A stretch of DNA of 64,000 bases, taken from a virus. Lineage: Duplodnaviria; Heunggongvirae; Uroviricota; Caudoviricetes. Numbering within the stretch: position 1 is the first letter of the stretch; each line of letters begins with the position of its first letter. Positions 1 through 3,000 of the stretch are shown here, piece by piece. The position numbers were made by a program. The DNA lies in IMG/VR virus record IMGVR_UViG_2684623127_000007. One strand, 5' to 3'.

Positions 1-3000
1 ATGCGTGTTGAGATCTGTATTGCTAAAGAAAAAATCAGCAAAATGCCAAACGGTGCTGTGGATGCGTTAAAGGAAGAATTAACCCGACGCATCAGTAAAC
101 GTTATGACGATGTAGAGGTGATCGTAAAAGCCACCAGCAACGATGGGCTTTCTGTTACACGCACCGCAGATAAAGATTCTGCAAAAACATTTGTTCAGGA
201 GACTCTGAAAGATACCTGGGAGTCTGCTGACGAGTGGTTTGTTCACTAATAAACACGTAAAATCGGTAACGGCTGGAAATCATTCAATACTCGCACTATC
301 GAAAGTTCACCAGCCAACCGCGACACGTTCTTACATACGAAGTGCCGCGCTTTCCTTAATAATTTTTTAGCAGTACTGTGTAAATGATGAGCGACCTAAT
401 CCATGCATGACGCGTAGTGCCTATTGTGCATCTTTCTGCGTCTCTTTTTACTGGACCCAAGCCAATGATGCTGGCGATACCATTCCCGCCAGGCCCACTT
501 ACAACAGTAAAATTCGGGGCTCTGCCTTTACATACAATACAATGTTGCACGATTGCCCATCATCAACTCCGTTAATATCTATGAGTAGTAACCCTATGTA
601 ACTGTAAAGACGAATCAGCGCTAATTGTGTCTGTCCACATCCCCAAATGTAAAGATATAAGGAGCACCATGATACAGTTGGATCTGATTTACATCCTGTA
701 AATTCTCGTCGATAGCCACCCCTGGAAAATCATGTTGCTGGATAAATCCGTATCCTATGTTAGACACAGCGGAATACTCTGTGAAATCAGGACTCGCCTC
801 ATATCGGTCACTGATCGTACCCAGTCTTTCGAAGAAAGCCCTCTCATTCTTTTCATGCCTCATGGCAGCCTGTCGAAGGGCATTCAGGTTACGTAGTCTA
901 AGATGAGCTTCTCGTTCTGGATCTGCATATCCTTTGAAGTCGGGAACACTCCATCCCAGCTCTTGAGCGACACGACGTGCGAGAATCTCGGTGGGTCCTA
1001 GCTCTATATTACTATCTCCAGATGGATCGCTGGCCCCAGTAACATGATGAATAATCTCGTGAATCAGTCCTTCCTGCCACGATGGCATCTCATAAGAATC
1101 AGTATCTGGCGCAACACTAAAACTGACATAAGGCTCTTCGTTCTCGTTTTCTCCTGCCTCGCAAATGGGGAGAATTGGTTCTTGCCCGACATCGTATCCA
1201 TATAATTCGTTACAGGTTAGTGATTGAATATCATCAATTTTGATAGCAGATTCTCCGTTAAGCTCGTATTCGTTTCTGTATTTAATGCAACCAATGTGTA
1301 CCTCCTCATTATGAATGCCATAGCTTACGGCATCACGAAATGTTTGTGATCGGCTCAACGCATCAAGTACAGTGTTGCCAATCATATCGACCGTATGCTG
1401 ATCGATGAGCCTGCTACGGCTGTCATGGACGGCGCTAATTACACTTTCGTATACGTTGCTTAAATCTGCTGCGGAAAGCGGTATTCGCTTGCCTATATCC
1501 AAAACGTAATCCGCATAGGCATTTTCAGCACGATTAGGAGCAACGGCAGCAGAGTATCCAGCAGGGGCAAAAAAGTTGAAGCCAGGTTGGAGAACGGGAA
1601 TTTTCATATTGATACTTAATATGGTTTTATATATTTCAGTGCCACCAATTCACTAGCTTACAACCAGAAACTAAAAAAACGTCAGGGCGTTGATAATAAT
1701 GAATACCAACTTTCTGCCCATTTATAGTAATATCTTTCGTTATCAGGTTTTGTCTGGCAGCTTCACGTAATATTTCAATACTCTGCAAAGCAACATTTGA
1801 TGAAATGCTGGATGTTATCAATGGCATATGTCATTTACCCCAACAAGACTAAATTTTAGAAAAAACAACTGCCGGGACAACTTTCGCCCCCTGTAACCCC
1901 AAATAAGATGTCAGATTTATCGGCATTAATTTATCTCCCTGTTGAATTAGCTCCTCTATCATCTACTTAACAAATATCCCCCGGACATTGCAACACAAAA
2001 ACCGGAGCCGGACTCCGGTTTTGTGAAGCTGTCGGGTTACTTCATCCCGCCAATATTTTCCCACGTCCCGTCAGCACGCAGGATTTGCAGCGGTCTTACC
2101 ACACACTGTATCTGCTTTTTATCCGCATCCAGTATCACCACCTGCGTGATTACCCTGTCCTGCTCCGGGATAATGCCATTCTCATCTGACTCCAGAATGT
2201 CTGCCGGTCCCAGTCGCAGCTGTGCTGTAAGTAACTCCCCGTGTTCACGGTCATCATGCTTTCCGCAACCACACAGACGCTGCATAAGTTTTTTTAGTAT
2301 GTTCATGTCATTCTCCTGTTCTGCCTGTATCACTGCCCACTTCATCCAGCCCCTTAACATCCTGCCACGGCCCGTCACCAAACCTGACCTGCAAATGCTG
2401 AAAAAAACCCTGAACCCGTGTGGCATCTTTGGGGGCAAGAAAGGTCAGTCCGGTGATGAGTGCGCCATCTGTATCCGGGAACCAGCCATTGCTGTTTGTC
2501 TCAATAATGTTTCCCGGCCCCAGACGGAACCGTATTTGTGTCTCCCCCGGGTCGCCCTTCGGTCCCTGAGGTCCGGTTGCCCCCACCGGGCCAGCCGCAC
2601 CTGTTTCTCCTTTCGGTCCCTGTGGGCCTGCCGGGCCTGCCGCACCGGTATCTCCCTTTGGACCCTGTGGACCTGCATTTCCCGTCAGACCGGTCTCTCC
2701 CCGCTCTCCCCTGTCACCTTTCGGCCCCTGCGGGCCTGCCGGACCAGCATCACCTGCCGGTCCCCGTTCGCCGGTTGCCCCGACAGGGCCGGTGTCACCG
2801 CGCTCTCCCTTATCACCCTTCGGCCCCTGAGGACCCGCGGGCCCCTGTTCCCCCTTTGGCCCGGGAGGTCCCACCACGGTGGGGATTCTGTTTACGGCTT
2901 CTTCCGCCGCTATCCTGCTTTGTTCCGCTGACTGTGCGCTTTCTGCTGACTCCCGGGCTTTTTCTGTTGCGGTCGTTGCATCCCTGGCTGCATTACCGGC

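What the first reader, a model, noticed from the sequence alone, without database searches (positions are those of the whole stretch)
200..420. Diverged direct repeats of the dinI 3' end plus about 170 bp downstream at both ends of the Stx2 prophage (second copy at 45060-45280)
The sequence from the dinI C-terminus (GAGTCTGCTGACGAG at 220-234) through about 170 bp downstream recurs after int at 45079-45280 at roughly 80% identity, including an identical 15-bp GAGTCTGCTGACGAG (45079-45093). Upstream of the repeat at the int side there is no dinI-like sequence. Either the Stx2 phage integrated into the 3' end of a dinI-like gene of a resident prophage, or two related prophage ends each carry dinI.
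Basis: inference. Interest (0 to 1): 0.4.

Follow-up and report, generated by a model that had tools for sequence, protein, structure and literature searches.

The report
dinI-end repeat is not the att site
The repeat is real, but it is not where the Shiga-toxin phage inserted: the phage used a 21-base site 185 bases away inside an older defective prophage, an arrangement already published in 2021.

Summary
Window 220-327 matches 45079-45186 at 82% identity without gaps, and with two indels the match runs to about 425/45258. No dinI sequence lies upstream of the right copy.

The repeat does not mark the Stx2 prophage boundaries. Genomes that lack this prophage keep the right copy together with the 185 bp upstream of it, and the junction falls at window 44874-44894 (CCGTCACATTAACTGCATGAC). 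The integrase is the yecE type, 99.6% identical in DNA to that of phage EH297. The second 21-bp copy ends 223 bp upstream of window position 1, so it is outside the window. dinI, the left repeat copy and nleC are therefore phage cargo, and the same phage carries them when it sits in yecE.

The right copy belongs to the resident defective prophage at ompW (PPompW). This is the "prophage in prophage" arrangement of Nakamura et al. 2021 (PMC8112680), with the phage in attB-in-PP_1.

The repeated module appears to be their attB-in-PP_2. It is homologous to the chromosomal ecpE-ykgJ spacer and overlaps the annotated attP of phage HK633.

I add one small point. The PPompW target looks like an attL relic: a yecE 5' fragment, the core, a P'-arm-like 185 bp, then a dinI stump. 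Verdict: already known, low interest.

The parts
1..249 (+). Intact dinI-like gene. It is cargo of the Stx2a phage and lies inside the prophage. The true left att site ends 223 bp upstream of window position 1.
   Evidence: Pfam DinI, E 1e-19. RefSeq names it a DinI-like protein. LC567841.1 and LC567842.1 annotate dinI within the phage, whether it sits in PPompW or in yecE.
220..425 (+). Left copy of the repeated module: the last 30 bp of dinI, the att-like segment (about 221-345) and the ykgJ upstream region. It appears to be the attB-in-PP_2 copy of the Stx2 phage, and nothing is inserted in it here.
   Evidence: Alignments. Window 72-499 is 82% identical (ungapped columns) to the K-12 ecpE-ykgJ region. 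The HK633 attP annotation aligns to about 258-338.
386..499 (+). 5' fragment of a ykgJ homologue, a pseudogene with a 1-bp deletion after codon 4. It is captured chromosomal sequence.
   Evidence: Alignment to K-12 ykgJ. RefSeq annotates a partial hypothetical CDS at window 407-499.
621..1607 (-). nleC, a type III secretion effector. It is the effector cargo at the tail-fibre end of the Stx2 phage.
   Evidence: Pfam Peptidase_M85, E 1e-112. Annotation.
28463..29703 (-). stx2B (28463-28732) and stx2A (28744-29703). These confirm a Stx2 prophage.
   Evidence: Pfam SLT_beta and RIP.
43260..44834 (+). Excisionase (43260-43514) and yecE-type tyrosine integrase (43548-44834, 428 aa, with an arm-binding domain).
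   Evidence: Pfam DUF1233, Arm-DNA-bind_2 and Phage_integrase. Window 43200-44900 is 99.6% identical in DNA to phage EH297 xis-int-attR in yecE and 100% identical to LC567841.1.
44799..44819 (+). Candidate arm-type integrase-binding site AGTGTCCCATACATGCCCCAT in the P arm. This is an inference.
   Evidence: The same 21-mer occurs exactly in the phage P' arm (L003 7888-7908). A degenerate copy, GTCCCAACCATGTCCCA, lies at window 45012-45028 in the PPompW relic, and a related copy lies in the P' arm of the SCU-482 yecE prophage.
44874..44894 (+). True right-hand attachment site of the Stx2 prophage (attR), 21 bp, CCGTCACATTAACTGCATGAC. The crossover lies within TTAACTGC.
   Evidence: The three-junction comparison and the yecE lysogen junctions. 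GenBank 'duplication due to insertion' feature. The 13-mer TTAACTGCATGAC occurs once in the window. Published att confirmation.
44895..45078 (+). The roughly 185-bp spacer of the resident ompW prophage between attB-in-PP_1 and the right repeat copy. It is homologous to the P' arm of yecE-type prophages.
   Evidence: 68% identity over 174 bp, E 4e-21, to the P' arm of the yecE prophage of strain SCU-482, and colinear with it. No similarity to the yecE 3' side. It is present in empty-site genomes.
45079..45258 (+). Right copy of the repeated module in PPompW: a dinI stump (45079-45108, nine codons plus stop), the att-like segment (about 45080-45175, apparently attB-in-PP_2) and the start of ykgJ'. 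An IS3-family remnant truncates it.
   Evidence: Homology to the K-12 ecpE-ykgJ spacer. The 185-bp spacing matches the S8 legend of PMC8112680. IS3 pseudogene at window 45308-45552.
47679..47874 (+). Third, partial copy of the module (ykgJ upstream region and 5' part only), abutting espM1.
   Evidence: blastn: 65% to window 312-506 and 71% to K-12, E 2e-22.

Best explanation
The two copies are paralogous copies of one end-module found in lambdoid prophages: the dinI 3' end, an att-like segment of about 100 bp, then the ykgJ upstream region and start. They are not the recombination sites of this Stx2 prophage.

The left copy travels with the Stx2a phage, in the order P' arm, dinI, module, ykgJ', nleC, tail fibres. 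The right copy belongs to the resident defective prophage at ompW (PPompW). There a deletion of about 330 bp removed the dinI promoter and roughly its first 73 codons.

The Stx2 phage entered PPompW through its own yecE-type tyrosine integrase. Its attP (CCGTCACATTAACTGCATGAC) recombined with a yecE-like 21-bp site in PPompW (CCGCCACTTTAACTGCATGAC, called attB-in-PP_1). Strand exchange lay within TTAACTGC. That site is 185 bp to the left of the right repeat copy.

The repeated module itself corresponds to attB-in-PP_2 of Nakamura et al. 2021. It is homologous to the chromosomal ecpE-ykgJ spacer and overlaps the annotated attP of phage HK633. Neither copy in this window has anything inserted in it.

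Shown here: the boundaries, the core, the integrase type, the empty site and the homologies. Taken from the literature: excision, the attP junctions, and the use of attB-in-PP_2 by other phages. Inferred: the arm-type sites, and the origin of the PPompW target as an attL relic.
For: **Empty site.**
- O157:H7 strain 10671 and many other genomes lack the int region and match the window only from 44874 onward (H41-H50).
- The alignment of attL (NCCP 13914), the empty site and the window attR shows flank exchange exactly at the 21-bp core.
- The two polymorphic core positions segregate as expected for a crossover in TTAACTGC.

**Integrase and phage identity.**
- Window 43200-44900 (xis, int and the att region) is 99.6% identical in DNA to phage EH297, whose record annotates an attR core in yecE.
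- Near-identical phages in yecE (LC567842.1; also LC567829.1, 100% over window 1-520) carry the same dinI and left copy inside their 21-bp ends.

**Database and literature.**
- LC567841.1 annotates the same 21 bp as the insertion duplication. It also annotates a separate 121-bp duplication for PPompW in ompW.
- PMC8112680 describes integration into PPompW and attP sequencing after mitomycin C. It also describes attB-in-PP_1 (its 21-bp sequence is the reverse complement of the core found here) and attB-in-PP_2 with ykgJ/ecpE homology, and it lists nleC-carrying Stx2a phages among the carriers.

**The module.**
- Window 72-499 is 82% identical to the K-12 ecpE-ykgJ region, and 45080-45254 matches the same region.
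- The HK633 attP annotation overlaps the module.
Against: - The left att site lies outside the window. The source genome is not in the complete-genome collection at 100% identity. attL is therefore inferred from genomes and phage records that are identical at both junction regions.
- Equating the repeat with the published 96-bp attB-in-PP_2 rests on three things: the ykgJ/ecpE homology, the 185-bp spacing given in a figure legend, and the paper's list of carriers. The figure with the 96-bp sequence could not be read.
- Whether these two particular copies can serve as att sites was not tested.
Confidence: 0.93

Rival explanations
1. The repeat is the att duplication: the Stx2 phage integrated into the 3' end of a resident dinI-like gene and supplied a surrogate 3' end, as e14 and phage 21 do at icd.
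For: The repeat is direct, lies near both ends of the prophage and starts inside a gene's 3' end. The int-side copy lacks the 5' part of the gene.
Against: - Empty-site genomes retain 44874-45078 upstream of the right copy, so the junction is 185 bp away.
- The same phage in yecE carries the whole dinI and the left copy internally.
- The integrase is the yecE type, with a known and different core.
- GenBank and PMC8112680 place the duplication at the 21-bp site.
Confidence: 0.01
2. The Stx2 phage entered, or can leave, by homologous recombination between the two repeat copies rather than by site-specific recombination.
For: These are direct repeats of about 200 bp bracketing nearly the whole prophage.
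Against: - The flanks switch at the 21-bp core, not within the repeat. attL joins the PPompW left flank to the phage P' arm, and attR joins the phage P arm to the PPompW 185 bp.
- The copies are only about 82% identical, and the longest exact runs are 16-17 bp. From general knowledge, that is below the usual minimum for efficient RecA recombination.
Confidence: 0.02
3. The two copies are inert, decaying homologous relics of prophage ends. They have no present function as secondary attachment sites.
For: - Nothing is inserted in either copy here.
- The right copy has two deletions and is truncated by an IS3-family remnant.
- In lambda and HK97 the homologous 100 bp is not the att core.
Against: - PMC8112680 reports lambda-like phages integrated in the 96-bp attB-in-PP_2 of prophages carrying effector loci similar to those of PPompW.
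- The HK633 record annotates the homologous segment as attP.
- In PV15-279 a prophage dinI is followed by the same sequence, cut by an IS element 17 bp after the dinI stop codon, which may be the IS-truncated att sequence that the paper marks in that strain.
Confidence: 0.3

Closest known systems
Prophage-in-prophage integration at attB-in-PP_1 of PPompW (Nakamura, Ogura, Gotoh, Hayashi 2021, PLoS Pathog 17:e1009073; GenBank LC567841.1)
   Same: - The integrase and the att region are the same (100% over window 43200-44900).
- The 21-bp att is the same.
- The host prophage at ompW is the same, with its effector locus (espM1, nleG, nleF, nleH, nleA).
- The phage cargo (dinI, nleC) is the same.
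   Different: The window comes from a different strain, with an O157-like PPompW, and its tail region is mosaic. Nothing differs in mechanism.
attB-in-PP_2, the 96-bp att sequence with flanks homologous to the ykgJ-ecpE spacer (same paper), and the attP of phage HK633 (JQ086377.1)
   Same: - Both repeat copies are homologous to the ecpE-ykgJ region.
- The right copy lies 185 bp from attB-in-PP_1, as the paper states.
- The paper lists nleC-carrying Stx2a phages as carriers with extended homology.
- The annotated HK633 attP aligns to window 258-338.
   Different: - The paper never mentions dinI (0 occurrences). Here the first 30 bp of the module are the dinI 3' end, and the K-12 spacer contains a dinI pseudogene.
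- The HK633 homology starts 8 bp after the dinI stop codon.
Stx phage integration in yecE (phage EH297, AJ431361.1)
   Same: The integrase and the P arm are the same, and the core is CCGTCACATTAACTGC....
   Different: The target here is a yecE-like fragment inside a prophage, not the chromosomal gene. On its right-hand side it carries P'-arm-like phage DNA instead of yecE 3' sequence.
This is from general knowledge.
   Same: A diverged direct repeat of a gene's 3' end lies at or near the two ends of a prophage.
   Different: Here the repeat is not at the junctions, the target gene is not restored by the phage, and the integrase recognises a different site.

Membership tests
att duplication (attL/attR) of the Stx2 prophage | The copies lie exactly at the junctions between the prophage and the DNA it inserted into. 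| tested here: not met
   The junction is at 44874-44894. The right copy starts 185 bp further out, and the left copy lies about 460 bp inside the prophage.
att duplication (attL/attR) of the Stx2 prophage | The empty site contains one copy, with the outer flanks joined directly at it. | tested here: not met
   In the strain 10671 empty site the flanks join at the 21-bp core. The right copy is present with its own 185-bp upstream sequence, and no dinI 5' part precedes it.
att duplication (attL/attR) of the Stx2 prophage | The same phage at another integration site lacks one of the two copies at its outer ends. | tested here: not met
   yecE lysogens (LC567842.1) carry dinI and the left copy inside the phage and have no second copy at the int side.
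Prophage-in-prophage at attB-in-PP_1 (Nakamura 2021) | A yecE-type integrase lies next to the att site. | tested here: met
   Window 43200-44900 (xis, int, att region) is 99.6-100% identical in DNA to EH297 and LC567841.1. Pfam finds an arm-binding domain and a catalytic domain in the integrase.
Prophage-in-prophage at attB-in-PP_1 (Nakamura 2021) | The 21-bp att sequence is present at both ends of the inserted phage. | tested here: inconclusive
   attR is present at 44874-44894. attL lies outside the window. It is present 223 bp upstream of dinI in NCCP 13914 and LC567841.1, which are identical at both junction regions.
Prophage-in-prophage at attB-in-PP_1 (Nakamura 2021) | The target lies in a defective prophage at ompW, next to its effector locus, with about 79 bp of yecE-like sequence beside the 21 bp. 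| tested here: met
   - In relatives the order is ompW', about 307 bp, then the core.
- The 100 bp at the core is 89-91% identical to the yecE 5' end.
- Effector genes lie downstream in the window.
Prophage-in-prophage at attB-in-PP_1 (Nakamura 2021) | The phage excises and circularises at this att site. | not testable with these tools
   Reported by PCR and sequencing for strains 112648 and 12E129. Not done for this genome.
attB-in-PP_2 / HK633-type att module | Homology to the chromosomal ykgJ-ecpE intergenic region. | tested here: met
   Left copy: 82% over about 400 ungapped columns. Right copy: 82% ungapped, or 71% counting gaps, over 203 columns.
attB-in-PP_2 / HK633-type att module | In PPompW it lies 185 bp from attB-in-PP_1 and next to the effector locus. 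| tested here: met
   The core ends at 44894 and the module starts at 45079-45080. The S8 legend is quoted.
attB-in-PP_2 / HK633-type att module | An integrase uses it as a recombination site. | not tested
   The only evidence is the paper's report and the HK633 attP annotation. Neither copy in the window has anything inserted in it.

The most novel reading that the evidence does not exclude
The 'attB' sites inside these prophages may not be plain captured attB sequences. They may be fossil hybrid att junctions.

In PPompW the attB-in-PP_1 site reads: yecE 5' fragment, core, P'-arm-like 185 bp with a degenerate arm-type site, then a dinI stump. That is an attL-like (BOP') structure.

The module dinI, att, ykgJ' is likewise phage DNA, an att-like segment and host DNA.

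This would point to one of two origins for the sites. One is aberrant excision, as in specialised transduction. The 2021 paper left the capture mechanism open.
Probability: 0.5. Interest if true: 0.35.

Novelty: already known. Interest (0 to 1): 0.15.

Why it matters
For this window, the result sets the Stx2 prophage boundary correctly. dinI, the ykgJ' fragment and nleC are phage cargo, and the prophage ends at 44894.

The general phenomenon does matter. Stx phages that insert into secondary att sites inside defective prophages can duplicate stx and let effector genes accumulate. But this was published in 2021 with experimental att confirmation.

The one increment here is that the secondary site looks like an attL relic. 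If that holds more generally, it suggests how prophages acquire landing pads for other phages.

Tried and rejected
- **Source genome.** I searched for it in order to read the missing left junction. No complete genome matches window 4000-10000 at more than 99.3%. NCCP 13914 is identical at both junction regions but differs in the tail region, where it has an extra sodC.
- **Far end of PPompW.** I followed it in strain 10671 to find a second att copy. That end abuts ynfA/speG because of an inversion, and there is no core copy within 50 kb.
- **First model.** I initially read the arrangement as simple tandem prophages sharing the ompW att. I dropped this because the ompW duplication is a separate 121-bp site about 307 bp away.
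- **RNA families.** An Rfam scan of both copies found only sub-threshold hits: CssrB at 24 bits against a cut-off of 76, and a microRNA model.
- **Promoters and terminators.** A scan of window 1-700 found nothing above shuffle expectation.
- **Ancestral synteny.** I tested whether dinI-ykgJ is an ancestral chromosomal arrangement. Among 80 ykgJ loci from different species, only E. coli and Shigella have the dinI remnant.
- **Literature.** A search linking ykgJ, attB and dinI found nothing beyond PMC8112680.
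Full report
**1. The observation**

The window starts at the ATG of an intact DinI-family gene (1-249; Pfam DinI, E 1e-19). From GAGTCTGCTGACGAG at 220, the sequence recurs at 45079, downstream of an integrase gene. The best ungapped block is 220-327 against 45079-45186, at 82.4% identity. Its local alignment score is 70, against a maximum of 15 in 200 shuffles. With a 10-bp and a 19-bp deletion in the right copy, the similarity continues to about 425/45258. The longest exact runs are 16 and 17 bp. The right copy keeps only the last nine dinI codons (ESADELLIH*), and nothing upstream of it resembles dinI.

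**2. Where the prophage really ends**

The window carries stx2A and stx2B, an excisionase and a 428-aa tyrosine integrase with an arm-binding domain.

A search with window 43500-47500 found 15 complete E. coli genomes with the whole stretch. Many more match only from query position 1375, which is window 44874. One of these, O157:H7 strain 10671, has this order: trpA, yciG, yciF, yciE, a 126-bp 3' fragment of ompW, about 307 bp, then the sequence of window 44874 onward. It has no integrase.

Strain NCCP 13914 is 100% identical to the window at both junction regions. It has the same ompW fragment and the same 307 bp, followed by a 223-bp stretch and then dinI.

Aligning the three junctions shows that all share one 21-bp core:

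| Site | 21-bp core |
|---|---|
| Empty site (strain 10671) and attL (NCCP 13914) | CCGCCACTTTAACTGCATGAC |
| Window attR (44874-44894) | CCGTCACATTAACTGCATGAC |

The flanks are exchanged exactly there. The 13-mer TTAACTGCATGAC occurs once in the window. The right-hand end of the Stx2 prophage is therefore 44894. Its left-hand att site ends 223 bp upstream of window position 1, outside the window.

**3. The integrase and its site**

The xis-int-att region (window 43200-44900) is 99.6% identical in DNA to phage EH297. That GenBank record annotates an attR core in yecE, CCGTCACATTAACTGCGTG. Near-identical Stx phages sit in yecE. Their ends (LC567842.1) are these:

- yecE 5' side, CCGTCACTTTAACTGCATGAC, then the same P' arm and dinI.
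- int, CCGTCACATTAACTGCGTGGA, then the yecE 3' side.

The way the polymorphic positions segregate in both kinds of lysogen places strand exchange inside TTAACTGC. dinI, the left repeat copy, the ykgJ' fragment and nleC stay with the phage at either site. They are phage cargo.

**4. This is a published arrangement**

GenBank LC567841.1 ('Stx2_12E129_PPompW') is 100% identical over window 43200-44900 and over 1-520. It annotates the same 21 bp as 'duplication due to insertion' of the Stx2 phage. It also annotates a separate 121-bp duplication for the host prophage in ompW.

Nakamura et al. 2021 (PMC8112680) describe exactly this. A yecE-type Stx2a phage is integrated into a 21-bp attB inside a defective prophage at ompW (PPompW). 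They give the attB as GTCATGCAGTTAAAGTGGCGG, the reverse complement of the core found here. The att sequences were confirmed by sequencing attP junctions after mitomycin C. They found the site in PPompW of 145 of the 767 complete genomes they examined.

**5. What the repeated sequence is**

A sensitive search with the right copy hit the chromosomal ykgJ region in almost every E. coli genome. In K-12 the match lies in the ecpE-ykgJ spacer and the first 39 bp of ykgJ.

- The Stx2 phage copy, together with dinI from about codon 24, aligns to K-12 from just after ecpE to ykgJ codon 38. This is window 72-499, at 82% identity in ungapped columns.
- The right copy aligns over 45080-45254.

So the K-12 spacer holds a dinI pseudogene, and the phage holds a ykgJ 5' pseudo-fragment (386-499).

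This matches the paper's attB-in-PP_2. That site is a 96-bp att sequence with ykgJ/ecpE homology, lying next to the effector locus of PPompW. The paper also finds it, with longer homology, in nleC-carrying Stx2a phages. The paper's S8 legend gives 185 bp between the two sites, which is exactly 44895-45079.

Independently, the phage HK633 record annotates as attP a segment 'similar to non-coding region between ykgJ and yagV'. That segment aligns to window 258-338.

Neither copy in the window is interrupted by a prophage, so neither has anything inserted in it. I could not read the figure that shows the 96-bp sequence. The identification therefore rests on homology, spacing and the paper's list of carriers.

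**6.

Homologous recombination between the copies is also excluded as the route of entry, because the flanks switch at the 21-bp core. 'Two related prophage ends each carry dinI' is correct. PPompW has the same end-module, with about 330 bp deleted: the SOS box, the promoter and about 73 codons of dinI.

**7. What I can add**

On its left, the PPompW target has 100 bp that are 89-91% identical to the yecE 5' end, starting at the yecE ATG and containing an in-frame stop. On its right there is no yecE 3' sequence. Instead there are 185 bp that are colinear with the P' arm of a yecE-integrated prophage in strain SCU-482 (68% over 174 bp, E 4e-21).

A 21-mer, AGTGTCCCATACATGCCCCAT, is exactly repeated in the P and P' arms of the Stx2 phage, which makes it a candidate arm-type site. 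It has a degenerate copy in the 185 bp, at 45012-45028.

The 'attB' in PPompW is therefore built like an attL (BOP'). Two origins fit:

- capture of an attL junction by aberrant excision;
- decay of an earlier yecE-type occupant.

The paper states that the capture mechanism was not resolved and does not mention dinI. This is an inference from sequence, and I rate it at about 0.5.

**8. Side observations**

- Among 80 ykgJ loci from different species, only E. coli and Shigella have the dinI remnant. E. ruysiae has only the att-like part. The chromosomal copy may therefore itself be a prophage scar.
- The roughly 100-bp core of the module is also present near the tail-fibre end of lambda, HK97, phi80 and other phages, where it is not the att core.
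- A third partial copy abuts espM1 at 47679-47874.

**9. Conclusion**

The repeat is real. It is explained by homology between two prophage ends, not by the integration event. The arrangement is already described in the literature and in GenBank. Interest is low.

Noticed in passing
window 44874-44894: This is the true 21-bp attR of the Stx2 prophage (CCGTCACATTAACTGCATGAC), 39 bp after the int stop codon.
   Followed up: yes
window 44895-45078, and L001 5905-6029: The secondary attachment site in the ompW prophage is built like an attL relic. It has a yecE 5' pseudo-fragment on one side and a P'-arm-like 185 bp on the other, and no yecE 3' sequence.
   Followed up: yes
window 44799-44819; L003 7888-7908; window 45012-45028: An exact 21-mer, AGTGTCCCATACATGCCCCAT, is shared by the P arm (inside the int 3' coding end) and the P' arm of the Stx2 phage. 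A degenerate copy lies in the PPompW relic. These are candidate arm-type integrase-binding sites.
   Followed up: partly
L011 1072-1364 (K-12 ecpE-ykgJ spacer); L016-L095: The K-12 ecpE-ykgJ spacer contains a 5'-truncated dinI pseudogene followed by the att-like segment. Among 80 ykgJ loci from different species, only E. coli and Shigella have it. E. ruysiae has the att-like part alone. The chromosomal copy may itself be a prophage-end scar.
   Followed up: partly
window 386-499: The Stx2 phage carries a 5' fragment of a ykgJ homologue with a 1-bp deletion after codon 4. This is captured chromosomal DNA between dinI and nleC.
   Followed up: partly
window 47679-47874: A third, partial copy of the module (ykgJ upstream region and 5' part, without the dinI end) lies directly next to espM1. 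This mirrors the way the left copy lies next to nleC.
   Followed up: partly
window about 257-345; lambda, HK97 (L014 2001-2106), phi80, HK75, mEp460: The roughly 100-bp core of the module is conserved at 80-93% identity near the tail-fibre end of many lambdoid phages. In lambda and HK97 it is not the att core. Its role there is unknown.
   Followed up: no
window about 55540-56600 (L004 2086-3145): A tail-fibre C-terminal remnant and an integrase pseudogene sit between nleH1-2 and nleA, inside the effector locus of the ompW prophage. This suggests that the locus is a fusion of two prophage ends.
   Followed up: no
L005 (strain 10671, far end of the ompW prophage): In strain 10671 the int end of the ompW prophage abuts ynfA/ynfB/speG instead of the ompW 5' part. 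This indicates an inversion between the prophages at ompW and ydfJ, a rearrangement that Nakamura et al. 2021 also mention.
   Followed up: partly
window 4000-10000: The tail region (J, tail assembly) is mosaic. The best complete-genome match is 99.3%, to an O111:H8 prophage. The window lacks the sodC gene that NCCP 13914 has after J. The source genome is not in the complete-genome collection.
   Followed up: partly
window 319-377 (- strand): A weak, sub-threshold Rfam hit to CssrB, a Shigella chromosomal sRNA: 24 bits against a gathering score of 76, E 0.009. It is probably chance or distant homology of the spacer.
   Followed up: no
L015 5716-6010 (PV15-279, prophage at ydfJ): Another prophage dinI is followed by the same att-like sequence, cut 17 bp after the dinI stop codon by an IS element. 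This is a candidate for the IS-truncated att sequence that the 2021 paper marks in its figure of the PV15-279 prophage cluster.
   Followed up: partly
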